Shown here: positions 1 through 33,367 of the stretch, piece after piece
Numbering within the stretch: position 1 is the stretch's first letter
How the letters are laid out: every line of letters begins with the position of its first letter
NCBI GenBank assembly: GCA_017499595.2
Contig: CM039000.1
Coordinates: 2,728,001-2,792,000, forward strand
DNA from: Psilocybe cubensis
Taxonomy: Eukaryota
DNA: 64,000 bases
Reading direction: 5' to 3'
Program-made: the position numbers and the translations under genes
Notes under the pieces: generated by a model
What the model was told of the DNA's origin: nothing
The model's input: the letters and a program-made list of their open reading frames with translations, nothing else
Database searches by the model: none

Positions 1-1783
1 ATCTCGACACTGTCCAGAATTGGGATTATATCAACAAACTGGATGGCCCACAAAAACACACAAAACACGGAAAGAGAAAGGAGATGGAGCGCTCACTAAT
101 TATTCATAGCAAGATCCGATATAGCGATGAGATCCTCGTGTCTAGTGTCTGTGTAACGTTGAAGGGCATTGGCTAAACGTCGATCTTGACCATTCTTGTC
201 ATCAGAGATCGAAGGTGTCGAAGAAACGCCTTCTTCATCTAGCAGCGTCGAAAGAATTCGCACATCCTCTAGGCCTGCATTTAGACCTTGGCCATAGAAT
301 GGCACCATGGAGTGGGCTGCATCTCCCAAGATAATGGCTCGATCTTTGTAATGGTATGGGTTTGCCTATAACAAAAAAAAAACCAAAAATAAACCCCTCA
401 CGGGGGTGGTAGGGTTGGTTACAATCACAAGTTTTCCCTTGACCGTCTTATTAAATTAAAATTACCTTTGTACAAATCAGTGGACTTCTGGGATTCCGCT
501 TGAAGTCTTCCACCAATGATTTTTCGCCAATAAGGTGGGTCGCGTCAGGGAAATAGGACTTGAACCAAGCCAGAATACTCTCGGGGGTACAGAGGCGATC
601 AAGCTCGGCGGTCGGTGCAAATAAAGTGCATGTAAATGTTTTATCCTAGTGATAAGAATATACATTAATGAAAGTGGAAATAAAAAAGCATAGATACCAC
701 ATGGGACTTTACTTTGTTTGGGAGGGCTATTAGCATGAAAGAGTGGCGGGGCCATATGTGAAGATGATTAGGATCAAGCAGAAATGTGGATTCGCCATTA
801 ACGTCCCGGCCTGCCGGCATTTTCAATTCAAGATATTCGTCCCTGATGTACTCTTGTTGATAATTCATTCTAGAGTAAACGGTCAGGGAGAGTTGATGGG
901 AAAAAAACAAGACAAGACATCAGCGACAAAAACAAGTGACAGACAGAACGGACAGGTAAAATTACCTAACCACTCGCATCATCTGTCGTCGAATTACAGA
1001 ATAGCTACCGTCCGATCCAATGCAAAAATCGAAAGAGACGGTGCGATCCTTGTTGGCTAAGGTATCGTGAACGGACATGGACCCATTATCAAAGTCGACC
1101 GCGGTGACTTTATGATTAAAAAAGGTACGAATAGTGGGAGTCTGAGAAACTTGATCAAGCAACCCTTCATTCAGGAGTGCCCTGTCGATGGAATTTATAC
1201 ACTGTCAAGGAGAACAACAAAAAAAGGGGGGTACATAAACCTGTGCGGCGAAATACAAGAGAAATTCCACGAACCTGTCCATCTCTGTCATAGAGCTGAC
1301 TGTCTAGTTCGCCAGATAATTTATGAATCATGCGACCGCGCATGGGGATGGCGGACTGTAGGAAGCGATGTGCGGCGGCGGGCTCGACAGCCTCTAATGC
1401 TGCGATGCCGCGATGGGAGATGGCTAGGTTGATGGACCGCTGACCGACCGCAGCCTTGGAGGAAGCGAGCCGCATATCTGCAAATGAAAGACAAGACGGG
1501 ATGCAATTTTAGCTCAAATGCTACTGCATGACGTTGTGCGAAAGGGAGAATTTCATTTTATCAAAAAAGCGAAGACAAAAACAGACAGAAGTAGGGTGGT
1601 GTCGGATTGGGTTGGATTGGGTTGCAAGCGCGGCGAATGGTGATGTAAGGTGTTCTCACCTGGACGGCCTTCATATAGTTCGACGGCCCACCCACGCTTG
1701 GCGAGCGCTAAAGCTGCGAGAGCGCCGACGGGGCCTGCGCCTACGACGACTGCCTTCTTTGCAGCTGGTGATTGAGAGTGCAT
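1..1783 (-). CDS. BNA4: Kynurenine 3-monooxygenase (FAD-dependent), multi-exon, 3' end beyond the left edge
   Basis: ATG at 1783; [12 protein letters not shown] motif, [58 protein letters not shown], spliced NN/YVEM at the edge. Confidence 0.95.
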
Positions 1784-2119
1784 TGGACTGGAGAGAAAAG
1801 CAGAGAGATAGAAATGTAATAAAGATAAGGCGGAAGATTGACGCAAGGCTGATTAATCGATAGAGGATTAGTTTAGCGGTAAGAGCACGGGCCAACAATG
1901 TATACAGTCAGCAGAGCCATATGAGCATCTCCAGCAAGGCCGACTGCAACCTCGGGACGGACGATTTTTTTGAAGACAAGATCTGGCCCTCTTGCTCATC
2001 CATCCGTCATTCCGATCACAAATCGGCTAGATAACATCAGCATCTAATCTAATCTCCCAACAACTATCTATCTTGCTCCATCTACGGATCTTGCTGTTCT
2101 GTTCTTGTCCACAACGACT

Positions 2120-4037
2120 ATGTCTGCAAACCAGGTTCTATATACGCCTCTCACAGATGCCTTTGATATACCCACCAACAAAGACGTAGACGCGTCAGCC
2201 ATACCCGACCCACGTATTCTTTTCTCTTTCCCCTTCCCCGTACACCCTGCTAACGGCTGCACAGAATCCAAATGCACATACTTGTGTGGGAACTCGCTGG
2301 GTCTCCTTCCCAAACCCGCGTCCGACCTTGTCCAACAGGAGCTGCGCGTATGGGCCACACGGTATGCATCCGCTCATCCAAATAGCCTCTTCTTCTTCAT
2401 CACCGATGTGAATTTCTTCATTTCATCTCCCATACAGTGCCGTCATTGGTCACTTCTCGCATCCATATGACCGTCCCTGGACCAAATGCACAGACGAGGT
2501 AAACATATTGCTCGCAGAACTCATAGGTACTCAATCATTTTGTTTCCCTTTACACTCACCCTCACCCTTTTCACTTTGTCTTTTTCATATTTGCAGGCGC
2601 AGATGAATCCGAAGTCGCCTGCATGGGCACCCTGACGAGTAATTTGCACCTAATGATGGACTCTTTCTACAAACCTACCTCCACTCGGTTCAAGATCCTC
2701 TGCGAAGCCCATGCTTTCCCCTCGGACCAGGTAAACACAACATCTCCCCTTCCCCGTTACCTTTTCGCCACCAAATAAATAATTCATTCCTTCCTTTTAA
2801 CATCGTCTATTAATTTATTTCCCTCCCATCCAGTATGCTTTCCAGTCCCAAGTCCTCGCACATGGTCTCGACCCGTCCACAGCTATAATCGAGCTGTCTC
2901 CTCGGCAGGGAGAATATACCCTTAGAGAAGAGGACATTCTCGAAACCATCGAAAAAGAAGGAGACTCTATTGCACTCGTTCTCTTCAGTGGCATTCAATA
3001 CTATACTGGCCAATGGTTCCCCATGCAGTCCATCACAAAGAAGGCTCAAGATAAGGTGATTTCTATCTCCTTCCACTTCCTTTCCCCTTCTCTGCCCTTT
3101 CTTCTCGTAAATAGCCAAATTAAAGCGGTGAAAGGGAAGAAAAACACCTGATGCTTGCTCCCCATACGGAATAAATTATTCTTTCCCTCTTCACGTCACT
3201 TCTTTTCCTTCGTGTTTTTTTTGCTAATCTTCTCGTTTTAGGGTTGTATCTGTGGCTGGGATCTAGCTCATGCCGTTGGGAATGTTCCTCTCGAATTACA
3301 CAACTGGAACGTCGATTTTGCCGCGTTCTGTACCTACAAATATGTCAATTCAGGTCCCGGAGGCATAGCCGGTTTGTTCATCCACAATAAATGGCATGAA
3401 ACTGAACGTCCCAAGTGCGTGTTTTCTTTATTTTATTTTTCTTCCAAATCTAGACCACAATTTATACCCTGTTGCTTACTGACTCTTGCTTTTTTCGTTC
3501 TTTTTTCCGTGAATTTATAGATTTGCAGGATGGTGGGGACACGAGCTGTCCACGCGCTTCGCCATGCCTCCTACGTTCTCACCGATCAAAGGTGCGCAAG
3601 GGTTCCAGCAATCGAACCCGTCCGCGCTTGCAGTCGCAGCGCTGCTCGGCTCCTTACGCGTCTTCAAGGCCGCAGGGATGATGCAGCCCATCCGAGCACG
3701 CTCCCTCGAGCTCACCGGCGCGCTCGAAGCCCTGCTCAAGCGCTCCAAATATTATATCGACGCGACGCAGGCGCAAGCGTACAGGGGCAAAGCGGGATTC
3801 ACGATCATCACGCCTGATGTGCCTTCGGCGCGTGGCGCGCAGCTGTCGCTGCTGTTCCTGCCAGTGGGATCGGGCACGATGCAAGCTGTGCACGGTTATC
3901 TATCGCAGAATGGGGTTATCGGAGACGAGAGGCAGCCTGACGTGATCCGTCTGGCGCCTGCGCCCCTGTATAATACACTGAAAGACTGCGAACACGCGGC
4001 GGAGGTTCTCGAGAATGCGCTCGCGGAGCTGCAATAA
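2120..4037 (+). CDS. BNA5: Kynureninase (PLP-dependent), multi-exon
   Basis: [42 protein letters not shown] (PLP Lys), [28 protein letters not shown]. Confidence 0.95.
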
Positions 4038-4144
4038 GCAGATCCATTTCCATTTCCACACATAGATATCTATACATATAGGCAGTAGCGCTTAGTAGTA
4101 TGTACGCGTTGAACGCGAATTATTACTATATATGGGAGGATATC

Positions 4145-5057
4145 CTACTCTGGGATAAGTCGAGACGTAAACTGCCTGACGAGCTGGAGATAGGCGTCTC
4201 CTTCAAAGATGGCATCATGCTCCTCTTTGAGGGCGTCCGTGTTGATGGATATCAGACTAGGAGTAGGTGCGATTTGCACGAGATGGTTGTACATGCTGCG
4301 CGTTTGGTCAAGATCGATGAGAGTATCGCCTGTTGAATGGAGCAAAAGCCACGCCAGCGCCGAAGAAGACGAAGGAGAAGACAGCCGGAGGGGATATTCC
4401 AGTGCCGAAAAGCGTCTATAAGGCGCGTCTCCGGAGCTTGGGGGGCCAAAGGTGGGTTCGATAAACCAGGCTTGGTAAGCGGGGAAACGGGCGACGAGTT
4501 TGTCTAGGTCGTAGATGCCTTCTGAGAGCACCACGCCCTTGACCGAGCTTAAAAGGTCTGGAGACGGGACCAAACTAGCTTGGTGGCTGTCGAGGAGAAT
4601 CGAGGCGAGCATGTGCGCGCTGCAGCTGTGCCCAAGCAAGACAAGCGAGTCTGGATCGAACGCATCGGAAAGCTGTCCTTGATAACGCCATGTCCTGACA
4701 AATTTGAGAAAGGTCAGAATATCCTGGGCATGGATTGGGTGACGAAATCGCGGATCGTGGTTATCGCTGGGAGTGAGGCGGTAGTTAGGCACAGCTACTG
4801 GGCAGGCTGTGGCTGCAGCGAGCCTGCGGGCGAGCTGGGCATGGTCTTGCTTGTCTTCACTAGCATAGGATAGATATGAATATTGCTGCGCAACTGGACA
4901 GAAAATACGAGAGTACTGACGATCTCCAGGCGCCACCGTGGATAAAGCAGAGGAGCGAGGGCGTATGGGGCAAAGAAAGGGCTAGCTCCGGCAAGTAAAA
5001 GTCGAACTGGCGGAGTGGATCGTCATTGGATGCGGAGTCGTACGGAATGCTGTTCAT
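4145..5057 (-). CDS. BNA7: Kynurenine formamidase-like alpha/beta hydrolase, 2 exons
   Basis: FIHGGAWRS oxyanion motif spliced to EDK, NYRLTP, HPIHAQD, GHS nucleophile elbow, SEGIYD, HSTGDTLI, EEHD; adjacent to KMO and kynureninase. Confidence 0.8.
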
Positions 5058-5120
5058 GTCCAAGCAGTAAGCGAATGACGCACCGCGGCCCGTCTATTTT
5101 CGGCAACCGTATGTTTTGCT

Positions 5121-5160
5121 TGTGACGTCACACCCCTGAGTCTCTGCTACCCATATAAAG
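5121..5160. promoter_or_regulatory. CRE/ATF palindrome, STRE-like CCCCT and TATA box in the divergent BNA7/PMP3 promoter
   Basis: TGTGACGTCACA 5121-5132, CCCCT 5133-5137, TATAAAG ending 5160. Confidence 0.55.
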
Positions 5161-5204
5161 TCCGCCGAGTACTCTGCTCTCTTCTCATTCAAATCTCTCC
5201 GACC

Positions 5205-5597
5205 ATGGCCTTCACCGCTTCAGATATCTGCAAAGTACGCCCTTTTCTTTTATTTCCTGCTATTTTTCTCATTTAAGCGCCTAGATCATCCTCGCCATCT
5301 TCCTCCCACCGCTTGGTGTCTTCTTGGAGCGTGGCTGCGGCGCCGATTTCGTGAGTGTCTCCTGTCCGGCACCCCCACTTGATTCCATTAACTGGACCGC
5401 CATCTAGTTCATTAACATTCTCCTGACAATCTTGGGTTACATGTAAGCTTTTCGCTCCCCGCCTATTTTCAACTCCTTCTTAACTCTATCCTTGTTTTCT
5501 AGTCCCGGAATCATCCATGGCATGTCTTCTTCTGCATTTCCTCATTTTGCCCAGCTGACCTTTTCCTCTAGCCTTATATATCATATTGAAATATTGA
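5205..5597 (+). CDS. PMP3: Plasma membrane proteolipid 3 (Pmp3/RCI2 family), 5 short exons; not captured by the ORF track
   Basis: Spliced: MAFTASDICK/IILAIFLPPLGVFLERGCGADF/FINILLTILGYI/PGIIHA/LYIILKY*. Confidence 0.92.
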
Positions 5598-5788: not shown

Positions 5789-8700
5789 TCAATGTACGAG
5801 TACCACATCGTCTTCGCTCTCGCTTTCCGTTGTCTCGTCCTCGCTTGTAGTCGCACTGACCGGCCTACTTGAATTTTCGCTCGCACTCACATCCTCGCTC
5901 GCAGACTCGCTTTCTCCGCCGTCCACTCCTTCCGTACTCGTCGACTCATCTCCGCTCTCTGTGCTATCCTCTGATGCTGTCGCACCCCTCGCAGCAAGAG
6001 CAGCTGGGATCACAGATGAGGCCTTGGGAGTAGCTGGCGTCCTTCCATTGTCCGCATTGTCGTCTTCTGATTCTGTTTCATCTTCTGATTCGCTTTCCTG
6101 CGCGTCAAACTGTTGAATCATATGTGATCCAATCATCCAGCATTTTTGGAAATTTTCGCTTTCTGCTCCATCTTTGAGGTCGGTTCCCTTTGATGCTGCG
6201 AGACGATGCCATGCGCGAATGTGGTCTTCTTCCACAATGTCTTCCTGGTACAGCGCCGCGAGAATTTGTCCAAAGAGCGACATCCGTGTCGACGTCGCGC
6301 AATGAGCCTATCCAACGCGTATCATGAATCAAAATCAAGAAATTGTCAAAAAGCACTGATCAACAAATGTTCCTCACCTGAAGGATGCTAACAGTCTCAA
6401 CGGGATCAACACCTCCAATCCTGTTAATCAAGTCTCCCCATCGGCCAACAACACTCGCGATCTCCCTGCGCTGCGCGGCAGGATCTCCATCCACCACCGG
6501 AATCTTCTCCACGATCGCCGCGACGACGGCCTCTTTGACACGGCTCAGCGGCACATTGCTCGCCATGCGCAGCGTCTTGAGTTCGACCGCCGCGTTGTCG
6601 ACCGAGTGGCCCTCCGCGAACGCGCGCTCCAAGCTCTGGTTTACCTCCGTGCGGAACTCGGCGTCCGCCATCAGCCCAGCCGCGTCGCCCAGGCCCATGG
6701 CAGGCATCTCCACGCCCGACGCATCAGACATGCCCGACACGGACGAACGCTCATGGAAGTCCCCGTCGTCATCATCAGACGACGAACTTTCCTCGTCGTC
6801 CGACGACGAGCCATCATCAGAGACCTCTACCTCTACATCGGATGCTGTATCGCCTATTTTAAAGAGAGCACATTTAAGATTAGCATTTGGGAATAGACAA
6901 ACAGACATATGACATTGATCGAAAAAAAAAAAACGTAGCGTTGGAACGAGTGTGTTATGTGCGATGTGAATTGCAATTGAGTTTTCTTACTCCTCTTGGG
7001 AAAAATAGCGAGAAAATTAGGGTACGTACCGAGTCTCATGAACCGCTGGTTCTCATAGTTTTCTGGTCCTTCCACCTCATCCTCTTCATCAGGTGGTGCT
7101 CTAGGCCAGACAACGGCGTTCGAATCTTTTCCCAGTGCCGATTTGTCTATTGAATCTTGACCTGTAGTAAAAAAGAAGTTATTTTCAGGGTTCCAATACG
7201 ACGTGTGAACCACCAATTCGGCGAAATCGCGAAAAAGATGAAGAAAGAAAGAAGAACAGGCAATGAACCACTGGTCCGGATGAAATACACAATAAGATAG
7301 GAAAAAGAAAGAAATTATACACACTAGCTTCAACTTCTTCCACGTCAGAGTCGTCGCTGTCGTCGTCCGCATTGCTGTCATTCTCGTCTCTCTTTGTCGA
7401 CAGCCTTTCAAAGGGTTGCAGGGTTGCATTCGGGCCAACGATGACCCCATCGGCGATCAGACATCCCTTTGGGACGCGTGAGCCATCCTTGATCTGCACG
7501 CCAGCGCCTATAATACTCTGCTCGACATGGCAGTTCTCACCAATCACCGCGTTCTCAAAGATGTACGAGTTGCGTATCGTAGAACCGGCTCCAATGGAGC
7601 AGTTCTGCCCTATAACGGAGGCTATAACGGACGCGTTATCAGAAACAGTAGTTGACGAGCCGATAAGCGTGTTGGTGCCAATGTTGCATGTTCTATTGTA
7701 AAGGGGAAGGAGAAGAGGGCAGCGATGATGTGATGCCATATTTTTAGTGCTCTTGGGTAAAAAATCATGAGGGAGAAGTAATAGTCCACGCACCGTGCAA
7801 GGACTACGGTGTTATCCTTTGCGATGTAACGATTGCCACGCGTGTGTTCGTAGATATGTCCACCTGGATGGTTGTCATCTGGTACCAGTGGGAACGTCCA
7901 TCTTGACAAAATGTCTTTGCTGAAAGACACGGGTGAAAAAACACGAAAAAGTTTCGGGGTTTTGTTTGATGATCAGAACGAGTTGTAACATGGGATTGGA
8001 TTTGAAAGATTTACCTGATGGATGCATAGCTGCGTGTGTCCTGCACACGAGCCGCGTAGCCTTCCTCAGCAACGTAGCAGTATATATTTTTCATGAGGAT
8101 GTCAGACGTCAGGATGCCATGCACAAAGTCTCGACGGATATCCAGGTAATCAAAGTTGTCCTGGAATAGAGAGGGGACCTAGAATACCCATTCAAAGAAA
8201 CGTTACGATCAATCAATACCCATGAACAATCAGCATAACAGACCTCGACGGAACAGACATCGATAGAGCAGTCAATCAGATCGTTTCGGATGTCAAGTTC
8301 TGGATGTTCTGCAAAGATCTCGCGTGGAATACTGATGCCCTTCTTTGCAGGATACCCTTGCAGATGTTCATAGTGCAAGCACTCTGACGTATTAGGGTCC
8401 AGAACAAACACCGATGATTCTCCCTTTGCTCTGTAAAACAAAAAAAAAAACATAGCACTAAGAGTCCATTAACCAGAGACGAAAGCACATACACACCTCG
8501 TCCGATGATTCACGCCGCTCTCTTTCACGACCATCGTCATGATCGCGTCCTTGTTCGTCTTCCTGCGCTCCTTGTGCACGCGCACGACCTCGTCGATCCG
8601 GATATTGCTCACCAAGTCGCCCATGACGAGCACAAAATCCGACGTGACCAGCCCGCGCGTGTAAATGTCCCGCATCGCATCGCCCGGCGAGAACGTCTCC

Positions 8701-9162
8701 TTCGCAGTCATAATCGGGACGATCTTCATCCCTGAGCCCGGTTTAGACCATTTTGACTCCCTTTTTTTGTTCGTTTGTAGTGATTAGAAATACGAGTTGG
8801 ATCACAAGGATAAGCGAGACAGAGAAAAGCCTACTTGATCGCGTTTTTTACGAGCTCTGCATGAGATCGGCATATCACAAACACCTCCTGAACACCCGCA
8901 AGTGCTAGACTTTCAAACGTCCAATCGAGTAGAGGCGCGTTGCAGATCGGGAGCAAGCACTGTGATAACACAAGTCGATGGCCGCCACATAGATTAAACA
9001 CAAAAAAAGCAATCTGCACAGTAGAACTCTTACTCGAGGCTTCCGTGTCGTAAGAGGTCTGAATCGCTTGTTGAAACTGTCGGCTAGAATGACGGCCTGA
9101 AGAACTTCCTCGTCCTCGTCAATGAGCTTTTCTTTGCCTGAATTCGTAGATTTTGCGGCCAT
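5789..9162 (-). CDS. GCD6: Translation initiation factor eIF2B epsilon subunit
   Basis: LQAVILADSFNKRFRPLT..PR/CLLP NT-like domain, left-handed beta-helix repeats (IGQNCSIGAGSTIRNSYIF), ELKTLRMASN and LYQEDIVEED W2/HEAT domain. Confidence 0.93.
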
Positions 9163-9621
9163 GGAGGCTAATGATAAATGAATCCAATTAGATCAGGGAG
9201 TCTACCATTGTCCCAATGAGTCATATTGCTTAATTGGGAAATATAAAGAAATTCACGCCATTTTTTTTTCTGAAAAAATCAACCAATGTATTATGAGACC
9301 TAAACGATTGAGAGCACGATCCAATGAAGCACTATGGGTATTGGGGGGACAATGGGAATAATGGATCGAGTATTAGGTATAAAAGGCGGAATGTGGCTAG
9401 TCGTAAACATCATGAAATAAAAAAAAATGGAAGAAAGCAAAAAGAAAACCATCCGAGCGTATCATAGACGAAAAGACGCGAACATGTTAAACGGTATGAT
9501 CCACGATATATGGTTCTGTGTGGTATTTAAAAAATGGCCAAGATGGAACAGATGAGAAATGAAGGGGCTCGTCATGGTCGTCGAAAACAAAAAGAGTCGT
9601 GCCAATGAAAGAAGGAAGAGT

Positions 9622-10724
9622 TTAAGCTGTAGCAGCCACAACAGGGGTGGCAGCAGGGGCGGCCTCGACAGGCTTAGCAGCCTCTTCCGTCTTGGTTTCG
9701 GGCTCAGCGGCAGCAGCAGCAGGAGCCTCAGTGGTGGCAGGGTTCTCGAGAGGAGCCACGGGGGCGGGCTCATCGATCTTGGGGGGGTGCTCGTCAACTT
9801 TGGCGGGAGTGTTGACCTCAGCGGCCTTGGGCTTGGCCTTGAAGAAGTCGCCAACACGGGCGGAGAGACGGCGGCCGACTTTAGCAGCCTTGGCCTCCTT
9901 CTTCTCGTCCTTCTAAAATAGAAGGTCAGGGAAGGTTATTTTTAATAGATTGGAGGACAGGAACACACCTTCTCCTCCTTGACCTCCTCAGCAGCGGCAG
10001 CGGGGGCAGCCTCAGCGACAGGGGCGGTCTCGCTAACAAAAATGGAAATGGGAGAAAAATTTAAGTGCGATTGGTCGGAAAAAAGAATGTGAAATCAGAA
10101 AACTTACGTCTCCTTGACAGGCTCCGCGGCCTCCTCCTTGGGTGCCTCAGCAACAGGGGCCTCTGCAGCAGCAGGCTCCTCTTTGGCAGCGGGAGTCTCC
10201 TCAGCAGCGGCAGCGGGTGCAGCAGCCTCGGCCTCCTTATCCTTCTTCTCCTTCTTGGGGCTCTTAGGAGCCTTGGTCTTCTTGTCGTTCTTGAAGGGAG
10301 CGAGCAATTTAGAGAGCAAGCTAGGGCTCTTGGGCCTCTCCTCCTTCTTTGCCTCGGTTTCGGCCTGATTGGGGGGAAGAGATATGAGAACAAAGAAGAA
10401 TGATAATCGATTTGAACATACAGGCTTAGCCTCCTCCTTGGCCTCCTCAGCAACAGGGGCAGCAGCCTCAGCCTCGGTGGCAGCAGGGGCGACAGCGGGA
10501 GCCTCAGCCTCTGCGGGGGCAGCAGTCTCGGCCTTTGAAAGAAAGGCAGGTGAGCTGGTTGCTAGAGGGGGGGGGGGGGCAAAAATGGAAAAAAGACGCA
10601 CGGGGGCAGCAACAGCAGGCTCCTCAGCCTTGGGAGGCTCGACAGCGGGTGTAGCCTCTACAGGCTTGACTTCCTCAACGGGGGCAACGACGGGGGCAGC
10701 GGCAGCGGCTTCAGGGGCAGACAT
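9622..10724 (-). CDS. Ala/Glu/Pro/Lys-rich intrinsically disordered protein, 5 exons
   Basis: Strong GCT/GCC/GAG/AAG codon bias, clean phase-0 introns, stop TAA at 9622; motifs KSPSLLSKLLAPFK and KVGRRLSARVGDFFK. Confidence 0.8.
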
Positions 10725-11347
10725 TATTGCAGAACGCGACGTGAGCTGAAAGAGATAGCGCGTCTGGTGAGCGGTGGGAAGGAGAAGAAGAAAAGAGGAA
10801 GAAAAGAGACTAACTGTGAAGAAGAATTAGATAGAGAGAGAGAAAATTGCGTGCAACGCAGACCAAAACCCGATGGGGAGTTGAGAGAAATTAGGAAGGA
10901 AGGGATAGAGAGCGTTTCGAATTCGGTCTTTTTATTTGGTTCTATGTGTTGCTTCTTGTTTGGTTGTTAGCTCGTCAGGGTCGTCGCCATGTTCCATAAC
11001 TTTCCACATCGATTCTCCGCTGATGGCCCTCTCCCCTCTCCCCTGCCTCTTTCTCCTGCTGCTCTCTCTGTATCCAGATGCCCTGCGCCCTACGAGCGAG
11101 CGTCTTTTGGCTGCAGAAAGACAGACCCCTGAGCAGAGAGAGAGAAATGGAGTCATTTTCTTTTTTCTTCAGCAGCCGACATCAAAGCCTAAACGGAGAT
11201 CCCCGTTTGTCTAGACTAGCATGTCACGTGCCTCCTCTCTCACGCGCGGACTTGGAATGAGGGCAATACTTATTGTTAGCGCCCAGCAGCGGAGCAATGA
11301 CGCTAGTGCTTGTATAAATACAAGCAGAGATTGGACTGTACTGGACA

Positions 11348-12356
11348 ATGGCTCACCGACTGCTGGCTGTCCTGCCTTGTGTTCTCTTTTTTGTTGCGTT
11401 TCTGCTGCTCCTGCTCGTGTCCCTGTCTGCCCCCATCATCACCTCCATCATTCTCTTCCGTCTCTCTGCCAACCTCAATGTCGGGCCCTCTATATTCGCC
11501 ACCAATGCCACTGGTACAGTTGCCTTTGGTGTCTGGGGCTACTGTGTCTCCGCCCTAAAGGTCGCGTGCGTAGTATTTCTCGCTCTCCATATTCTACCCG
11601 TCCTCATTTCATAGTCCAGCATCGCGGGTGTAGATCGCTCGCGAGACGGTCAATGCTCAAAAGTCAGACTGGGATATACATTCGATAGCACCGTAGCAAG
11701 AGCGCTGTACGTTATTGCGCGTGATGCAATTCTTGTGTCTAATTCCTCCGTGTATAGCAATGCAGATGATCTCCAGAATATCCTCTCCCGCACCACAACG
11801 GCCGCCCTGGTGCTCCACCCTATTGGTATCTATACAACTTTCCATTCTCTCCTCCAGCCCTTGACCTTGTTTTTCCCAAGCTGCCGCTCTCGCCTTCCTC
11901 ACCCTATTCATTTCCCTCCTTGCCCTCCGACGCGGATCAAATTCCAACTCTAGACTCCCCTCCTTTCTCACCATGGGCATCGCCAGCCTTACTGCTTTCC
12001 TCACCACAGTCGTCTTCCTCATCGATGTCATCGTCGTGGCTGTCGTGCGCGCACGCGTCCGCAACGCCACCGATGACCACCTCGACCTCGTATGGGGCAA
12101 TGCCGTACGTCTATCATAAATAGCCCCACCATGTCCAAACTCAATTGCTTCCCTTTCCCTTCAGGTCTGGATGACGCTTGGCGCCGCGGTAGCATTGTGG
12201 CTCGCCCTAGCTGGTGCGTGCTACGGCATGGTCGCAGCCCGACGGACAAACAGGTGCCCATCCTTGTAACTCCTGAGCTCGAGCTTCTCCTGATATATAT
12301 CTCGATTTGTATATGTTGCATTGACCGCGCGCAGAAAATCCACGACCACCTATTGA
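11348..12356 (+). CDS. SUR7/PalI (Rim9-like) family membrane protein
   Basis: N-terminal TM, FGVWGYC...C..LGY claudin-like motif, LVLHPIAA, FLIDV, WGNAVWM; ends RKSTTTY*. Confidence 0.85.
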
Positions 12357-13025
12357 TCTTCTCCGACAAATACCATGCCTTCTACTGAACATCATGACAT
12401 CATCCCACTCATGGACCCTACGAAATCACACTCGCACGACCACATACGATACGAAGATAATCCACACGGAATGTAATAATTCAAATACTTTTTTCTCTCT
12501 GTTTCCATTTTACAATTACACCATACTGACACCTTACCGCATCTTCCTAATACCCATTGTATCTGCATACCGATTCTTCCTGTAGCAGTAGTCTACATAT
12601 ATATATAGCCCGCTGGACTAAGCATAATCTATATTAGTCGTCTTTTCCAACATTCATAAAGCACAGGAACCACCCCATTCTCAGGTTGTCCTGGTTCCTA
12701 TTCAAAGAAGATGCTCTAAGTGGGACTAAACGAGGGATCGGACGACAGGAGATCATTTCCCATCCCATTCTGACATGTCAATTAGCCCGGCCGATAAGAG
12801 TACAAGCTCCAAGGTCGCTCGAAATAACCTTGCACCAAGAAGACACTGAACTGACTAGTCTTTGCGCTCACGATAGCTAATTACATCTCACCGAATTACC
12901 GGTACAACACAAAAACAAATATTCCTTGTCAATAGAACGAAAAACAAGATAAAGAAAAAAACAAATAGAAAATATAGAAAATCCCACTAGATACGAACGA
13001 ACGAAGCGAAAAAAGAATAAAAAAA

Positions 13026-15024
13026 TCAACGGTCCCTCGACGGAGTGTTGCCTCTTCTCGGCGTGCCAGGCGTCTTGCGCGGCGTCGCAGGGACACTCGT
13101 CAGCCGTCTGTCCCCCACCGCCACCGCCCCGCTCTCTGCCGCCCGCTGCACCTCCTTCGCCGCCCGCCGTGCCGCATCCCCCACCATCGCCGCCGGCCTC
13201 TCCCGATCCACCCTCGACAGCGCACGGAGCAAGTCCAGCTGATCCGCCGGCCCCTTCATCGTCCCCGCCGGCGCAACATACGTCGCCAGCAGCCCCGCCG
13301 CCGTGCGCGGTGCAGCAGCCACCTCCCCGCCCTCCGTGTGCAGCACCGTCCGCGACGCCAGCTTCGCAGAAAGCAAGTCAAACCGCTCGTTCAGCGCCTT
13401 CTCCGCAATATTCGTCGTCATCCGCGCAGCTGACACGAATGCGAATATCTGGTCGACTTTGTACTCCAGCTCGGGCAGCCGCCGCTTCAGCTCCGCCTCT
13501 ATATCGCTCCTCGACATGTTCATCGACCCACGCCGCCCTGCTACCGCGCCGCCGCCGATCGGCCGCTCGTCGCCCACGGCGCGGTGCCCTAGCACAGATT
13601 TCGCGAGCGCGAGCGCGGGTCGGAATTCGGGTGAAATTTCGTGTTCTTGTGGGATGAAATAGCTTTCCATCTCGCTCAGGTCGCCCGTCGCCCGCCGTTT
13701 GCCCTTGGCTTTGGCGGAGAGTGCCCCAGGATCGAGTTGCACGGCCGCAGCGCGCTTCTCTAGGGAGCTTTGAAGTCCTTTAGTGTACGTATCATAACCA
13801 TATGATACCTTCTTCCAAGATTCCTCCTCCGCTTGAGCTCTAAAAACAGGATGATAAGCCATTAACCGCGATTTTTAACCGTGTAGAAAACTTACTGTTG
13901 GATATGCTGGGTATATCTGACCTCCCACTGTCGATTCCGCACGTTTTGTTCGTTTTCACGAAGATCTTCGGGCGGTCTCGTGCTACTGCTCGCAGCTTCT
14001 GGCTCGTATAAGCTGAGGTTTATTTCTTTCCCAGCCAACATACGAACCAGTCCTTCCTGAACACTTTTCAACACCTGCGCGCCTTGCGTGGATAACGGGG
14101 GCAGAGTCGGCGGAGGAGGTTTTGAGGAAGAAGATGAGGATGAGGATGTTGTAGATGACGGATTCGAGGCGGCTCTTAATGAACACCATATTAACAACTG
14201 TCGAAGACGTTCAGGTTCTGGTAGGTCACAATCAATATGTTTGTGAAAGCTACTCTCAGAGACAGAGTTGTGTGGTTGAGCTGCAAAAAATGAGATTTTA
14301 AAAGTTCCTACAAACACGAAAACACATGTTGAACATACTGATAATACCAGTGGCTTGGTACGAAGAACTAGTCCGTTTCCCTCTCCCATTGACAGAGCTC
14401 TTCCGCCGGTGCCCTGTCGGCCTCCCGTTAGCTTCGTACGCCTGCGACCGGTCGTTGTTGATCACAAGCAGCGACGAGTCAATGGTAGAGTGTACACGAG
14501 ACTGTCGTCGAAGCATGTCTGTCTCGTCCTCCATGGCTCTCACATCCATCTCCACCTCCGCATCCTCATTACGATCGTGGGTCGCTTTCGATGATTTAGA
14601 TTTGCTCGGAGGGCGTGTAATGGTCTCCGAGTCTGCTCGGAACTTCTTCGCTGGGTGTTTAGAAGGGCCAGCTTGCAGAGGCTGCGATGAATAACGGGTC
14701 GGTATTGATTCGGTGGTGTTTGAAGGAGCGGGCTGAGATAGTGTCGGCCCGATATCTCGGGGATGAACGATCAAGAGACCGCCATGACCATCGTCATTAT
14801 TCACTACACCCACTACAAAACAAACATCAGCATCTCTACGCGTTATTCGTTCGGGGCTGGCACACATACGCTTCCGCTTATTCGACGCGCTTTTGGCCTA
14901 AACATAAGCAGCAAATCTTATTAGCCAGTTGTTCTTTCGAAAAAAATGCGTATATCGTCAAAGAAATACGCGCCTCCTTCTTCGCTCTTTTTGCAGCGGC
15001 CGCATTTAACAGTGGATTCGACAT
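13026..15024 (-). CDS. Kinetochore MIND/Mis12 complex subunit Dsn1/Mis13-like
   Basis: RGKRTSS..GII/QPHNSVSESSFHKHIDCDLPEPERLRQLLIWC, NEQNVRN, EEESW resemble the fungal Mis13/Dsn1 core. Confidence 0.75.
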
Positions 15025-15349
15025 TTGAGGTGCGCTCGATGCGCGCGACAACGGCGGGAGAAGCTGAGCAGGGTTTGATGCATGGCTCCCACGGTCCGCA
15101 ATCAACAAGTCGCGTGACAGTAACGGTGACAACGCCTCAACACGGAAGTGCCACTGTCACGCACGCGTCTCGCTTGTTCCACCCACAACATCGTTTTGCT
15201 CACCCACAGTTGACATCTTTACATCGCTTATCAAATGTTCCGCCAAAAATTTCTGATTCATTCAGTGTATATAGGACCCAAAAGCTGGGTCCAGTTCAAC
15301 GTGGGCAGACTCAATAACCAAATATGAAAGGAATAAATGTATATTAAAT

Positions 15350-17780
15350 CTACGCTTTTTCTTCCGCTAATTTGGCTGCAGCCTTTGAGCGCGGAGGAGG
15401 GCGCAGACCCTTCGCTTTCATGCGCTTCCGTTTTGCCTCTACAAAATAATCAGATACAGCCATTCTAAAAGATTCACAAGTTGCATACCTTCAAGATAAG
15501 GAGCATCCTCAGATTCATCAAATCCTTGGAACTTGGGTGTTTCCTCAGGCACATCTGCCTTGAACGCATCGTCAACTATCACAGGCTCCGATTCCTCAGC
15601 ATCAGCCTTCGGTAGTGTCTTCGAGCGCTTCTCGACTTTGAACTTGGCAACATAGAAACCATCCATATTGTGCACGTGGGGGTAGAATCGTCTGGTGAGG
15701 TGTACACTGGGGTTGAACGTCTTTCCCCTATAAGAGGTGAAACCTTCGCGACCAAACTGCAGACCAGTATCGACGAGCTTCACATTAGGTCTTTTGCGCA
15801 GGGCATAGTCGACGACGGCCTCGTTCTCTTCCACAGTCACTGAGCAGGTCGAATAAACAAGGTATCCACCAGTTTTCGACTCTGGGCTAACACTATCGAT
15901 TGCACAAAGGATCAACTGCTTTTGAAGGTGGGACAGGAGGGTGAAGTCGCGTTCCGACTAGATATAAAGTCAACGAAGACATCGATAGAAAACATACGTC
16001 ACTGCGTACCTTGTTGATTTTTACGCTGGGGTCTTTGCTGATAACACCAGTTCCACTGCAGGGGGCATCCAACAACACTCGGTCAAATCCTCCCATAACC
16101 TTGGGGAATTCTCTTCCATCATATGAGCAAACGATCACATTCTTGCAACCTAGGCGGTGCACGTTGGCGGTCAAACTCTTCGTTCTGGCCTTGTTCGCGT
16201 CATTGGCAAAGACGACGCCAGTATTTTGCATCAGTGCAGCCATATGCGTTGTCTTTCCACCAGGAGCAGATGCCATATCAAGGACTCGTTCGTTGGGTTC
16301 AGGTGAGAGGGCAATGACGGGAAGGAAAGAAGAAGCGGCTTGCAGCATGTAATGTCCGGCGAGATATTCAGGCGTTGCACCGATTGGAACGTTACTCTCA
16401 AATACTTGGAGGCCCACATTCGTCCATTTCCCGATGGGCTCAAGATTCACACCACGGTTAACAAGACCTTGCGCCAAATCGCGCCGTCTTGTTTTGAGGG
16501 TATTTGTTCTGATTGTTACGGGGCGTGGTACTTCATTGGCCTCGAAAAACTCGATAGCCTGTTTAAATTTCAATAAACGCCAGAATCGGTGTTTAAACAC
16601 ATATAAAGCCTCACCTCATTGACAGGGAAAAGTAGGAAGAGCTTTTCAGCCAAGAATTCGTTATAACCGTAGTAGCTAGCGATGTCAGCGACGAGTTGAT
16701 CAATGTACTCAGAACGAGCTCTTCAAAAAAAGACTGTCAGTAAGTACAGTTACCAAATATCAAGGAAAACACGGATTTCTTACCGTCCTTTCTCGGCTCT
16801 TTTACTAAACTTTGCAAGCACACGCACGCACTCCCTCATGCGTCTTTGAACGAGATGCACATCAGGGCCTCCGCTAGCTTTCTCCTTCTCGCGTTCTTCT
16901 GCAGTTGGCAGGCGGAAGGGCTCAATATTCATATCACCATTAGCATCCTCCTCTGCATCCATATCCACATCGTCGTCGTCTTCCTCGGCAGCAGCTTGAG
17001 CTTCCGCTATGTCAAGTTCGGCTTCGGCAACAGCACGCGCCTCCAATTTCTGTGAACGCGCTGCCATATTCTTCATGGTTACACGCTCATATTCTTCCTC
17101 CTCGTCGGAATCTGAGCTAGATTGGTCTGACTGTGTTGGGATAATCTTTTTAGGACGTTCTGCCTGTTTCGATTTTTTGGATTTAGTAGGTGCAACTTGA
17201 ACTTCTTCCTCTTCATCATCGGACCCAAAGTCAAATTCTTGGGCTTCTCCCTCGAGATACTCATCGCTAAATAATTGTCAATAAAAAGTCAACCAGAAAA
17301 TGAGTGACGGAAGTGACAAACTTTTCTTCTCCCTCGTCAGATTCAAGATCATCGAGTCCACCAACAAATGCACCAGGTTCCTCTTCATCACTTTCGTTGA
17401 ACATGGGCCTATCAAAATGATTAATTTATTAAAGGATGGCTGCGTCAAAGTTTGGAGAAAACGCACCTCGAATGTGCCTGCAATTCCTCGTCGTCTTCCA
17501 CATCTTCCCATCCTTCAGAGCCATCTTCATCAGCATGTTCGGGAGCCTTTTTCTTTTTGCTAGTCTTCTGCGGCTTTTCCTTTGTTGAGGCCTTCTCTTT
17601 TCCTTTTCCTTTTCCATTCAGATCCTTGACCCTCTTCGTAGGCCGTGGACTCGGCTTTCCATCGTCTTGACCCTCATTGTCGGCATCAGCCTTGCGTTTT
17701 CCTAACTGTTTTTTGGAAGTCCATGTTTTGGAATCAAGTGATTCGGGCGGCGCCTGCTTGTTCTTTGCTCGGCGGCCCAT
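15350..17780 (-). CDS. NOP2: 25S rRNA m5C methyltransferase Nop2
   Basis: [58 protein letters not shown]. Confidence 0.96.
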
Positions 17781-18139
17781 AGTTTTGTATGAAGATTAAT
17801 GAAGGATCAACTGCTTCGAGCGAAACTCAGAACTTTGAAAAAAATAATTGAGTGACATATTGGCACGTGGGGGTGTTAGGAACTGACGAATTGATCAAAC
17901 AACAGCGGCAATACGGACCGCAAGACAGGGACCTACTTAGAGGGATCATTGCGGGGAAGGCATCAAGAGGGCATTCAACGCCAGACTCTGTCAAACTTCA
18001 ATGCACAGGCAACTTGATTTGCAAATGAAAGAGTTTATGTGGAAAGCAGATCTTTTAGTCATCATTCGTATGATTAACTCGATTTTCTATGCTGGTTTAC
18101 ATTAAATGCAATCTCAAATTGATTTCGTCCACTTGTCCT

Positions 18140-18949
18140 TTAGCCAATTCTCAGCCCCAGAACAAATCCAGCGACGAACGACGCCCTTGGCTGGAAATCG
18201 GCCGTCAAGAAGTCTATCATCCAATTCCAAAGCGAAAGAACATTGGGGGGTCTGGTTCCTCCCGCAGCATCTTTGGTGTAAAATAAATTCTCAAACTTGC
18301 TTGCGGCCTTGTTCCAATCGACGCGGACAAGCGATGCTGAGCCCATATACTATAGTCGACATGCGTCAGATATGATTGCGGATAACGATCTAAAAGAGTT
18401 CATATCACACACCTGGAGGAGGACGAAAACACCACCGAGGAACCACGCGACTGCTTTAGCACCTTTTTTGACAAACACTCCGGCGCATAACCCCACAACC
18501 GTGCCAAAGCTCAATTCATACAACGACACAGATGATACAGGAGGAGGGGGCCTATCGTCCGGGTAAATAGAGTCTGTTGCTTTCGGAGGTGGAGGTGCTG
18601 ACGAGATCCATTTACTGTAAGTCAAAGTCTACCTGCGCTGGGAAAAGTAATACTGACCATCACAGAAAACAGGTTCCTTCCGAAGAGTAGACAACCCAAT
18701 ACCAACTCCAGCAACAGCAATCCCTTTTGTTACGAAAGATAAGCTTGGACGATTCTGCCCAGCCTCGTGCAATGCCCTCCATATCGGAGAAGGGAAATTA
18801 CGGGAAGTAGTAGAGGCAAACCGGGAGCCAGAGGTTGAGAATGGCTTCAAGGTGGGGTGAGAGAACAATTGTCTAGCATTGGCACTTTTTCCGTTTGCTG
18901 CCGACGTCAGGCAGCGCCGTGATACGAGTGAAGGTAGGACGAATGCCAT
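18140..18949 (-). CDS. FUN14: FUN14/FUNDC-family mitochondrial outer membrane protein
   Basis: YELSFGTVVGLCAGVFVKKGAK..GGVFVLLQ/Y..VDW; C-terminal RASFVAGFVLGLRIG. Confidence 0.85.
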
Positions 18950-31652: not shown

Positions 31653-33367
31653 TCATGACGACACCGTTCCCCGCACAACTGCATCCAACTCGCGTGCAAA
31701 GTACTCTATGTTGTGTGTGTTCAGTCCCGCCATCGAAATACGTCCATTCCCAGTCAGATAGATGTGCGACTTTTCTACAAGCGCCTTGCTCTGCGCCGGG
31801 CTGATTCCTGTGAAGCTGTGTGTCCCGTTTAGTCGATCTCGCTACCTGTTGCTCAAGCGCGCGCGTACCTGAACATCCCAATCTGGTTCACAATGTGGTC
31901 CCAGTTTCCCGGCGTCTGCAGCTTTTCCGTCAGCAGGCGGTGTAGCTCTCGTCGCATTTCAATGATGCGGCCTGCCATGGTCTGGATGTCGCGTTTCCAT
32001 TCTTCGAACAGGCCAGCGTCATTCAGGATCAGCGACACCTGTGAATTGCCTAATCAGTCATTCGGCCTTCATATCAGTGCCATATATTCCTCACAAGTCT
32101 CGCCCCGTGCGACGGCGGGTTGCTGATCTCGCTCCGCTGTAAGACCGACAGCTGCGACTTGACCCGGTTCGCAGTCTCTGTGTTCGGCGAAACGACGTGA
32201 AGTGCACCAACGCGCTCTCCGTACAGCCCGGCATTTTTTGCAAAGCTCTGTCATTCAGCGTTAGATTCTCGTGATCGCTCCATTCTACGGCGTCCGGCGC
32301 TTACCTGGCACACCAACAGCGGGAGCCCTAGCTCCACAAAGAGTCGTACTGCCCATGCATCCTTGTCCAGGTCGCCGCTGGCGAACCCTTGGTATGCACA
32401 ATCAAAGAAAGTATAGTGCTTTTTCGACGCGATCACCTCCGCGATTGCCTTCCACTGTTCAGGCGTAGGATCAACGCCAGTTGGGTTGTGAGCACATGCA
32501 TGCAGCAAGAAGACCGATCGTTCCGGGGCGCCCTTCAAGGCGTCTATGAATCCATTAAAGTCCAGGCCAATGGTCTTTGGATCATAATATGCATATTCAA
32601 CTGGCTCGATCCCAACGTTCCTAAAGATGGCGTGATGGTTTGCTGACCTCCCTTCAGTGCCCAAAATATTACTAGGAATGTAATTAAAAGGCTTACCCCA
32701 TGTAGGGTTGCTCAGATACACCCTCGCCGGTCCGTTCCATTTGTAAAATTTGGACAAAAATAGGGCTCCAAGGTGGTTAGCACCCGTTCCTGAGATGGTC
32801 TGCACGCTGACCACCCTACCCTCCTTAATAGCGGGCGAGTCTGCTCCGAGGATCAATTTGGCAGCAGCAGTGGTGAACTCTGCGAGACCAGTAATGGGGA
32901 GATATTCATGATCCAAACTTTCATCATTCAGAAGGATGGCTGTAGCCTGGAGATGACCCACATCCAAAATTAGCGCCCGTACAACGTAAGAACCCGGATA
33001 ACCGACACACACCTTTTTTACGACGGGGAGGACCCAAGGCTTGTTGTCGTTGTCTCGATAGGCGCCAACACCCAGGTTAACCTTGTCTTTGAAGGTGTCT
33101 GCCTTGTACGCCGCGGTCAATTGGAAGATACTGAGCCAACACGGTCAGGGTAACAATCCCAGCTACACCATGCACTTTAATCACCTATCGGGGGGCGCGA
33201 GGGGGACGTCTTGCCACAATTCTACGTGGTGGGTAATATCAGCAACCGGCTCGCCCCACGGGGGATAAGGTACCACCCCGCATAATGCGAAAAGACTTGA
33301 TACACGCACCTGCAGTCATGACTGTTCCACTAAGATGAGATACAAGTTGCTTGATTCTGTCAGCCAT
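31653..33367 (-). CDS. AAT2: Aspartate aminotransferase, cytosolic type; two in-frame ATGs (33367, 33319)
   Basis: PLAPPDSIF, KVNLGVGAYR, QTISGTGA, HACAHNPTG, FDCAYQGFASG, SFAKNAGLYGERVG, QIGMFS, GRISMAG. Confidence 0.95.

What the first reader, a model, noticed from the sequence alone, without database searches (positions are those of the whole stretch)
1..5057. Compact kynurenine-pathway gene cluster (KMO, kynureninase, formamidase)
Seen: three genes for consecutive steps (N-formylkynurenine to kynurenine to 3-hydroxykynurenine to 3-hydroxyanthranilate) sit back to back with nothing between them. KMO and kynureninase are divergent across 336 bp, and the formamidase converges on kynureninase 107 bp away. 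Known: S. cerevisiae BNA4, BNA5 and BNA7 are not clustered. 3-HAA is the precursor of NAD (via Bna1/Bna6) and of phenoxazinone pigments such as cinnabarinic acid, and it acts as a laccase mediator. Inference: this is a co-regulated tryptophan-catabolism cluster of three non-homologous folds. It may extend left (IDO/BNA2, BNA1, BNA6) or feed a 3-HAA-derived secondary metabolite.
Basis: partly seen in the sequence, partly recalled or inferred. Interest (0 to 1): 0.75.

Follow-up and report, generated by a model that had tools for sequence, protein, structure and literature searches.

The report
Conserved mushroom kynurenine-pathway gene trio
Three ordinary enzymes that carry tryptophan towards the coenzyme NAD sit side by side in this mushroom and in many other mushroom-forming fungi, an old and apparently undescribed gene cluster whose shared control is still unproven.

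Summary
The window is Psilocybe cubensis DNA. KMO (minus, ATG 1783, runs off the left edge), kynureninase (2120-4037) and a formamidase-type hydrolase (minus, 5057-4145) are intact and spliced, with gaps of 336 and 107 bp. The linkage is old: 57 of 61 named assemblies hold the genes on one contig. In metagenome DNA, KMO and kynureninase are neighbours in 19 of 19 groups showing both, and kynureninase adjoins the hydrolase in 24 of 26 testable groups. The KMO tree looks vertical, the kynureninase is of the 3-hydroxykynurenine type, and the flanks are housekeeping genes. That points to de novo NAD synthesis, not a specialised metabolite. No leftward extension to IDO, BNA1 or BNA6 was seen in 18 relatives' loci. 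Co-regulation is unshown: flanking junctions are as conserved as the trio's, and the hydrolase shares its promoter gap with PMP3. Formamidase activity is likely but unassayed. Ten literature searches found no description of this cluster. Verdict: a new variant of a fungal primary-metabolic cluster; interest 0.45.

The parts
1..1783 (-). Kynurenine 3-monooxygenase (BNA4-type), first 392 codons; exons 1783-1660, 1477-1275, 1201-966, 869-713, 645-466, 365-97, 9-<1; continues beyond the left edge
   Evidence: Model; joints and loose end; FAD_binding_3; nearest named hits labelled KMO; Galerina orthologue P0247 matches solved KMOs at 2e-94
1784..2119 (.). 336-bp divergent gap, the likely shared promoter of KMO and kynureninase
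   Evidence: No contig depth in 1843-2149 in runs X10 and X11 while DNA run X9 covers it; divergent layout in 17 of 19 groups of related loci
2042..2054 (.). Two overlapping copies of GATTAGAT (on the minus strand), a candidate regulator site
   Evidence: Present in 7 of 17 homologous gaps against a shuffle mean of 0.34, max 3; the six related loci fall in Agaricales in the tree; picked by eye before counting
2120..4037 (+). Kynureninase (BNA5-type, 3-hydroxykynurenine type), 441 aa; exons 2120-2213, 2265-2361, 2438-2526, 2597-2730, 2834-3055, 3242-3414, 3521-4037
   Evidence: Model; joints; last exon 100% to P0121; 2e-113 to human-type kynureninase structures, 8e-38 to 1QZ9; H69, D219, K245, S301, N302
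4038..4144 (.). 107-bp gap between the convergent stop codons, covered by spliced contigs (3' ends probably overlap)
   Evidence: One contig runs 3521-4859 in X10 and 3521-4854 in X11
4145..5057 (-). Alpha/beta hydrolase, probable kynurenine formamidase (BNA7-type), 283 aa; exons 5057-4921 and 4859-4145
   Evidence: Model equals P0001; HGGAW 40-44, S124, D224, H260; family profile ranks 1VKH (YDR428C) 5.7e-15 and 4E11 (kynurenine formamidase) 3.3e-11 first of 44
5058..5204 (.). 147-bp divergent gap shared by the hydrolase and PMP3; TGACGTCA core at 5123-5130 inside a 12-bp palindrome (5121-5132)
   Evidence: TGACGTCA in 17 of 20 homologous gaps, shuffle mean 0.12; absent in 4 tandem-type loci and L002, where PMP3 is gone
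5205..5597 (+). PMP3-family small membrane protein, 57 aa; flanking gene, not a pathway member
   Evidence: Model; joints; Pfam Pmp3 on the homologous part of P0115

Best explanation
This is the middle of the ordinary de novo NAD (kynurenine) pathway, gathered into a three-gene cluster early in mushroom-forming fungi and inherited vertically. An IDO encoded elsewhere makes N-formylkynurenine. The Ser124-Asp224-His260 hydrolase removes the formyl group, the FAD enzyme KMO hydroxylates kynurenine, and the PLP enzyme kynureninase cleaves 3-hydroxykynurenine to 3-hydroxyanthranilate, which unlinked BNA1- and BNA6-type enzymes take on to NAD. The core is the head-to-head KMO/kynureninase pair, whose shared promoter would match the making and removal of reactive 3-hydroxykynurenine. 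The formamidase is a looser third member with its own promoter. Shown here: gene structures, splicing, family membership of KMO and kynureninase, conserved linkage. Inferred: formamidase activity, flux to NAD, co-regulation of the pair, and the reason for the linkage.
For: Enzyme identities. Kynureninase keeps the His and Ser-Asn seen in wild-type human enzyme at the positions where 7S3V differs (their role in 3-hydroxykynurenine preference is recalled); an SNP motif is in 116 of 120 hits by a strict pattern. Same contig for KFA-KYNU in 30 of 31, KYNU-KMO 34 of 35, KFA-KMO 27 of 29 named assemblies; locus tags within 4 of each other in 14 of 17. DNA-level adjacency in Agaricales, Russulales and an unplaced clade. 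In that clade the trio stays together although kynureninase is inverted and PMP3/eIF2B-epsilon are replaced by other genes. KMO tree recovers Agaricales, Boletales, Russulales, Polyporales and Hymenochaetales as clades with SH-aLRT 97-100 (quick tree). Precedent: idoB-kynU2 share a tryptophan-responsive bidirectional promoter in Aspergillus (PMC11530996, passages).
Against: Flanking housekeeping junctions are as well kept: PMP3-hydrolase in 20 groups against 3 with enough DNA and no PMP3, PMP3-eIF2B-epsilon in 16 against 1, KMO-AT-hook gene in 18 of 18 loci. Conservation therefore shows no excess over the block. The hydrolase is detached in Agrocybe pediades (both assemblies), in L002 (beside a nucleobase permease) and in L053, and lies about 6 kb away in L049; in L049 and L053 it stays with PMP3. 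The tandem-type clade has lost the head-to-head layout, so a shared promoter is not essential. The GATTAGAT motif is missing from 10 of 17 gaps. Fold searches do not separate the hydrolase from esterases. Copy number in the genome and expression across conditions were not testable.
Confidence: 0.62

Rival explanations
1. The three genes are the NAD-pathway enzymes and were brought together once, but today they stay together passively inside a slowly rearranging block of housekeeping genes, without shared regulation.
For: Window 8.9-18.5 kb matches the same side of eight related loci from Agaricales and Russulales; flank junctions are kept as often as the trio's; no motif is shared between the two promoter gaps; four or more independent detachments of the hydrolase.
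Against: It does not explain the origin (3.6e-8 by chance). No separation of KMO from kynureninase was seen in DNA (19 of 19 groups); the one named exception is a partial gene model in a fragmented assembly. The trio survived an inversion and a flank change in one clade.
Confidence: 0.22
2. The hydrolase is a carboxylesterase or amidase with another substrate, so the cluster is really a two-gene KMO/kynureninase pair with a chance neighbour.
For: About 21% identity to 1VKH; by structure 1VKH (Z 24.6, rmsd 2.7, 237 aligned) ties with lipases and plant carboxylesterases (Z 24-25), and 4E15 ranks 47th in Foldseek. The nucleophile motif reads G-H-S-C-S, not G-x-S-x-G. Database names are automatic.
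Against: By sequence profile the two solved eukaryotic formamidases rank first and second of 44, and only 1VKH aligns over nearly the whole length (30-266 of 281), including the C-terminal Asp and His motifs. Atlas neighbours are Basidiomycota and Ascomycota clusters, one named kynurenine formamidase. Adjacency to two enzymes of the same pathway is itself support.
Confidence: 0.1
3. The trio is a specialised cluster that feeds 3-hydroxyanthranilate into a pigment (cinnabarinic acid type), laccase mediator or other secondary metabolite.
For: 3-HAA is a known phenoxazinone precursor (recalled; review PMC10930587 seen as a search listing only). P. cubensis has four IDO genes, one strongly up in fruiting bodies (PMC11046786, passages). 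Extra copies occur in some species: two hydrolases in Hypholoma, three KMO rows in Mycena floridula.
Against: Spread across at least seven orders with a vertical KMO tree. Flanks are PMP3, eIF2B-epsilon, an RNA methyltransferase, an AT-hook gene and an OS-9-like gene; no laccase, synthetase or tailoring enzyme was seen next to the trio in the ORFs scanned.
Confidence: 0.06

Closest known systems
Yeast BNA7 (YDR428C), BNA4, BNA5: de novo NAD pathway
   Same: Same three enzyme types and consecutive steps (PMC11530996 passages; structure matches).
   Different: Unlinked in S. cerevisiae (chromosomes IV, II and XII; recalled, YDR428C = BNA7 also recalled). In A. fumigatus the listed genes are Afu1g09960, Afu6g07340 and Afu4g09840, on three chromosomes by their tags (PMC5786828 table).
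idoB-kynU2 two-gene cluster of filamentous Ascomycota
   Same: Head-to-head kynurenine-pathway genes with a kynureninase, widely conserved (PMC11530996 passages).
   Different: There the partner is an IDO and joint induction by tryptophan is measured. Here the partner is KMO, a formamidase-type gene is added, no IDO is adjacent and induction is untested.
3-hydroxyanthranilate catabolic cluster of Aspergillus terreus
   Same: A fungal cluster holding three consecutive enzymes of tryptophan catabolism (PMC7842363 passages).
   Different: It is named for breaking down 3-HAA and is induced by salicylate in Ascomycota; this trio makes 3-HAA in Agaricomycetes.
Bacterial actinomycin-type clusters with kynureninase and formamidase genes
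   Same: Kynurenine enzymes clustered to supply a 3-HAA-type precursor (PMC5391158, search listing only; detail recalled).
   Different: Those sit beside peptide synthetases and tailoring genes. Here the genes have introns, a vertical fungal tree and housekeeping flanks.

Membership tests
Kynurenine 3-monooxygenase (BNA4) | FAD-binding class A monooxygenase, far closer to solved KMOs than to other flavin monooxygenases | tested here: met
   Pfam FAD_binding_3 on window exons; orthologue P0247 (89% over the query exon) gives 2e-94 to KMO structures against 8e-11 for the next family
Kynurenine 3-monooxygenase (BNA4) | Complete reading frame with C-terminal membrane anchor | tested here: inconclusive
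   The 3' part lies outside the window; the loose end continues in frame; relative P0241 ends in a hydrophobic stretch
Kynureninase (BNA5) | PLP fold with KYNU C-terminal domain, PLP lysine and aspartate | tested here: met
   KYNU_C 5.8e-20; K245 and D219 align with the human enzyme
Kynureninase, 3-hydroxykynurenine-preferring type | His and Ser-Asn at human positions 102, 332, 333 (feature recalled) | tested here: met
   H69, S301, N302 align with 3E9K/2HZP; 7S3V has W and T there. The paper search for this feature found nothing
Eukaryotic kynurenine formamidase (BNA7/AFMID) | HGGXW oxyanion motif and Ser-Asp-His triad (PMC5848607 passages) | tested here: met
   HGGAW 40-44; S124, D224, H260 invariant in 43 of 43 aligned sequences. 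These features are shared with many esterases
Eukaryotic kynurenine formamidase (BNA7/AFMID) | Closer to known formamidases than to esterases | tested here: inconclusive
   Met by sequence profile; tied with esterases by structure; no tree with yeast Bna7 was built
Eukaryotic kynurenine formamidase (BNA7/AFMID) | Hydrolyses N-formylkynurenine | not testable with these tools
   Needs an assay
Fungal metabolic gene cluster | Adjacent non-homologous genes of one pathway | tested here: met
Fungal metabolic gene cluster | Linkage conserved across lineages | tested here: met
   57 of 61 named assemblies; 19 of 19 and 24 of 26 groups of metagenome loci
Fungal metabolic gene cluster | Linkage kept more than the surrounding synteny | tested here: inconclusive
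   Flank junctions are kept about as often; one clade keeps the trio after a flank change
Fungal metabolic gene cluster | Co-regulation of members | not testable with these tools
   Only contig depths from two runs of one study, which cannot rank genes
Secondary-metabolite cluster | Backbone or tailoring enzymes beside the genes and patchy or duplicated distribution | tested here: not met
   Housekeeping flanks in window and related loci; wide vertical distribution. Genome-wide copy number was not testable

The most novel reading that the evidence does not exclude
The trio is an ancestral, selectively kept NAD-precursor cluster of the whole class Agaricomycetes, and in Agaricales the repeated GATTAGAT site between KMO and kynureninase is the binding site of an unknown regulator that sets how much tryptophan goes to NAD. 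In Psilocybe this would be one side of the switch that divides tryptophan between NAD and psilocybin during fruiting.
Probability: 0.22. Interest if true: 0.7.

Novelty: new variant of a known kind. Interest (0 to 1): 0.45.

Why it matters
Metabolic clusters are reported to be scarce in Agaricomycetes (1.6% of enzyme genes against 3.6-3.7% in two Ascomycota lineages; PMC4256263 passages). A primary-metabolism cluster kept across many orders gives a natural test of why such genes cluster: there are intact, inverted and broken versions to compare. The context also supports a formamidase assignment for a hydrolase family mostly labelled 'alpha/beta-hydrolase' in databases. It marks a 336-bp region and a candidate motif for studying NAD and tryptophan control in mushrooms, where such regulation is little known. 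The enzymes themselves are textbook.

Tried and rejected
No whole genome is held, so this species' left flank and paralogue count stay open. Protein accession numbers could not be obtained, so adjacency in Boletales, Amylocorticiales, Jaapiales and Gloeophyllales rests on shared contig length only; no Polyporales pair could be compared. Leftward extension: 19 ORFs from beyond KMO gave no Pfam family (many were antisense frames); 8 better-chosen ones gave AT_hook (weak, 6e-4), a kinase and a carbonic anhydrase. 56 window ORFs of 104 aa or more gave no IDO, HAAO or QPRT family; genes with only short exons could be missed. Fusions: long hits of the hydrolase profile carry NRDE-2 or GNAT domains, and none of the new representatives matched KMO or kynureninase; P0115 is a PMP3-hydrolase joined model, read as an annotation artefact. 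The TGACGTCA site was considered as a cluster-wide element and rejected: 0 of 17 KMO/kynureninase gaps hold it and it disappears with PMP3. Contig depths were not used to claim co-expression. No run is on record as RNA; X10 and X11 were treated as RNA-derived because they skip GT..AG introns. The 26 bacterial-like loci L055-L080 had no KMO or kynureninase hit and were dropped. Odd tag orders in Panaeolus cyanescens, Psilocybe cyanescens and Volvariella were not counted as rearrangements, since tags may run strand by strand (inference). Literature: ten searches listed no paper on this cluster. The 2013 PNAS paper on linked fungal metabolic gene pairs is not held. Supplements of PMC11381361 and PMC11046786 were unreadable, and 11 of 14 files of PMC4256263 were searched without a hit for the three EC numbers. 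Any of these may already list the cluster. Three look-ups in earlier scan findings returned nothing.
Full report
Observation. Models built from the window have canonical introns and no internal stops: KMO on the minus strand from 1783, open at the left edge after 392 codons; kynureninase 2120-4037 (441 aa); the hydrolase on the minus strand 5057-4145 (283 aa). The gaps are 336 and 107 bp. The hydrolase model equals a protein named from Psilocybe cubensis, and the last kynureninase exon is 100% identical to another on a contig of the same length, so the window is from that species. Contigs of runs X10 and X11 (one study) skip all six kynureninase introns, five KMO introns (four in X11) and, in X10, the hydrolase intron; a loose end at 97 fits the sixth KMO intron. 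All three genes are therefore transcribed and spliced. Depth figures from contigs say nothing about co-regulation.

Enzyme identities. The Galerina KMO orthologue matches solved KMOs at 2e-94 and the next monooxygenase family at 8e-11. The kynureninase matches human-type structures at 2e-113 and 1QZ9 at 8e-38; it keeps H69, S301 and N302 where wild-type human enzyme has His, Ser and Asn. From recall, these residues mark preference for 3-hydroxykynurenine, which fits a partner of KMO. The hydrolase has HGGAW and an S124-D224-H260 triad, the triad invariant in 43 of 43 aligned relatives; these are the features given for human AFMID (PMC5848607, passages). A profile of the family ranks 1VKH (yeast YDR428C) and 4E11 (kynurenine formamidase) first and second of 44 solved sequences. 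A confident model (pLDDT 93.5) does not discriminate: 1VKH ties with esterases at Z 24-25 and 4E15 ranks 47th in Foldseek. Formamidase is the likely, unassayed function.

Linkage in named genomes. I compared the top 120 rows of three searches (of 219, 2336 and 450 hits), typing NCBI rows by hand and using the listed contig length as a contig label. Rows without a species, and species found in one list only, could not be compared. Of 61 assemblies with at least two of the genes, 57 have them on one contig; pairs score 30 of 31, 34 of 35 and 27 of 29, and all three 16 of 17. Where locus tags are visible, 14 of 17 lie within four numbers, for example E1B28_008703/04/05, DXG03_002665/66/67, D9756_001650/51/52, EW146_g5276/g5278 and M0805_006051/52. 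Exceptions are Agrocybe pediades (hydrolase elsewhere in both assemblies), Psilocybe cyanescens (a partial KMO on another contig, probably an assembly break), Hypholoma (a second hydrolase copy) and Volvariella (ten tags apart, same contig). By recalled taxonomy the set covers Agaricales, Boletales, Amylocorticiales, Jaapiales, Gloeophyllales, Russulales and Hymenochaetales. Sharing a megabase contig is weak evidence alone. One species label was my guess, because the name was cut in the listing.

Linkage in DNA. A metagenome scan kept 80 of 103 relatives; 54 are fungal-type and fall into 31 groups at 90% identity. KMO and kynureninase are within 2.5 kb in 19 of 19 groups that show both (one member, L040, has a 3-kb insert). 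Kynureninase is within 2.5 kb of the hydrolase in 24 groups, apart in L049, absent from 1.7 kb in L053, and five groups have under 400 bp downstream. Most show the window's order: eIF2B-epsilon, PMP3, hydrolase, kynureninase, KMO. Two groups (12 loci, one long-branched clade outside the named orders) carry all three genes in tandem, with kynureninase inverted and a DDX23-type helicase and Gtr1 in place of PMP3 and eIF2B-epsilon. The KMO tree is a quick one without bootstrap; it recovers five orders as clades, which fits vertical descent. The scan selects on hydrolase motifs, so lineages that diverged further are missed.

What counts against a co-regulated unit. The trio lies in a long conserved block. 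Window 8.9-18.5 kb matches the same side of related loci, and beyond KMO the same small AT-hook-type gene follows in 18 of 18 loci and an OS-9/Yos9-like gene (family recalled from its features, no Pfam hit) in 17 of 18, tandem clade included. PMP3 stays beside the hydrolase in 20 groups and is missing in 3 with enough DNA; PMP3 stays beside eIF2B-epsilon in 16 and not in L049. So the trio's junctions are not better kept than their neighbours'. The hydrolase shares a 147-bp gap with PMP3, where TGACGTCA occurs in 17 of 20 gaps (shuffle mean 0.12), often 11-29 bp from a TATA-like box on the PMP3 side, and vanishes where PMP3 is lost. It is probably PMP3's stress element (CRE-type; recalled). The KMO/kynureninase gap has a different motif, GATTAGAT, in 7 of 17 gaps, all Agaricales; I picked it by eye, and related species are not independent.

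Mechanism. The best reading is the middle of de novo NAD synthesis: formyl removal, hydroxylation, then cleavage to 3-hydroxyanthranilate, with IDO, BNA1 and BNA6 elsewhere. The origin of the trio is not chance (3.6e-8). The KMO/kynureninase pair is the core, plausibly sharing a promoter to limit reactive 3-hydroxykynurenine (the toxic-intermediate idea is recalled; its source paper was not held). The formamidase is a looser member. Confidence 0.62. Rivals: passive synteny today (0.22), a hydrolase of other function (0.10), a specialised 3-HAA cluster (0.06).

Comparison and novelty. It works like yeast BNA7-BNA4-BNA5, which are unlinked in yeast (recalled) and in A. fumigatus by locus tags (PMC5786828, table passage). 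The nearest cluster is idoB-kynU2 of filamentous Ascomycota (PMC11530996, passages), with another partner. The passages seen of the Psilocybe tryptophan study cover IDOs, and the word 'cluster' does not occur in its main text (PMC11046786). Ten searches listed no description of this trio; PMC8865532, PMC10218983, PMC4217691 and PMC4243253 were seen as passages or term searches only and did not show it. Genome-wide cluster surveys may hold it in supplements that I could not read.

Verdict. A real, old, three-gene primary-metabolic cluster of mushroom-forming fungi, made of known enzymes, apparently undescribed, with co-regulation and selective maintenance still to be shown. New variant of a known kind; interest 0.45.

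Noticed in passing
window 5121-5132: Perfect 12-bp palindrome around TGACGTCA in the hydrolase/PMP3 gap; the core is kept in 17 of 20 homologous gaps across orders and tracks PMP3, not the hydrolase.
   Followed up: yes
window 4921-5234: One spliced contig of run X10 crosses the whole divergent gap between the hydrolase and PMP3, so their 5' ends may overlap; run X11 does not show this.
   Followed up: no
window 5789-8970: eIF2B-epsilon gene (W2 and LbH_EIF2B domains); a conserved right-hand neighbour.
   Followed up: partly
window 32254-33144: Class I/II aminotransferase exon, about 28 kb from the trio; substrate unknown, a kynurenine aminotransferase was not excluded.
   Followed up: no
window 8900-18550: Long block syntenic with Agaricales and Russulales loci: SUR7/PalI-type, RsmB/F methyltransferase and FUN14 genes among others.
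   Followed up: partly
L029, L036, L040, L045 and relatives: Tandem-type clade on a very long KMO branch (0.87), about 53% GC, outside all named orders in the tree; its order was not identified.
   Followed up: partly
L002:1558-3095 and 4411-5267: Agrocybe-like hydrolase moved next to a nucleobase/allantoin-type permease gene, without PMP3.
   Followed up: partly
L049:3500-9450: KMO/kynureninase pair inverted relative to PMP3/hydrolase, with a DUF6535 gene between them.
   Followed up: partly
L008:950-3100, L009:10850-12100, L040:13625-15082: Inserts of 1.3-3 kb inside the trio; L040 has a 486-codon open frame with no Pfam family.
   Followed up: no
P0115, P0471, P0475: Database models joining the hydrolase to Pmp3, NRDE-2 or GNAT domains; probably merged neighbouring genes.
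   Followed up: partly
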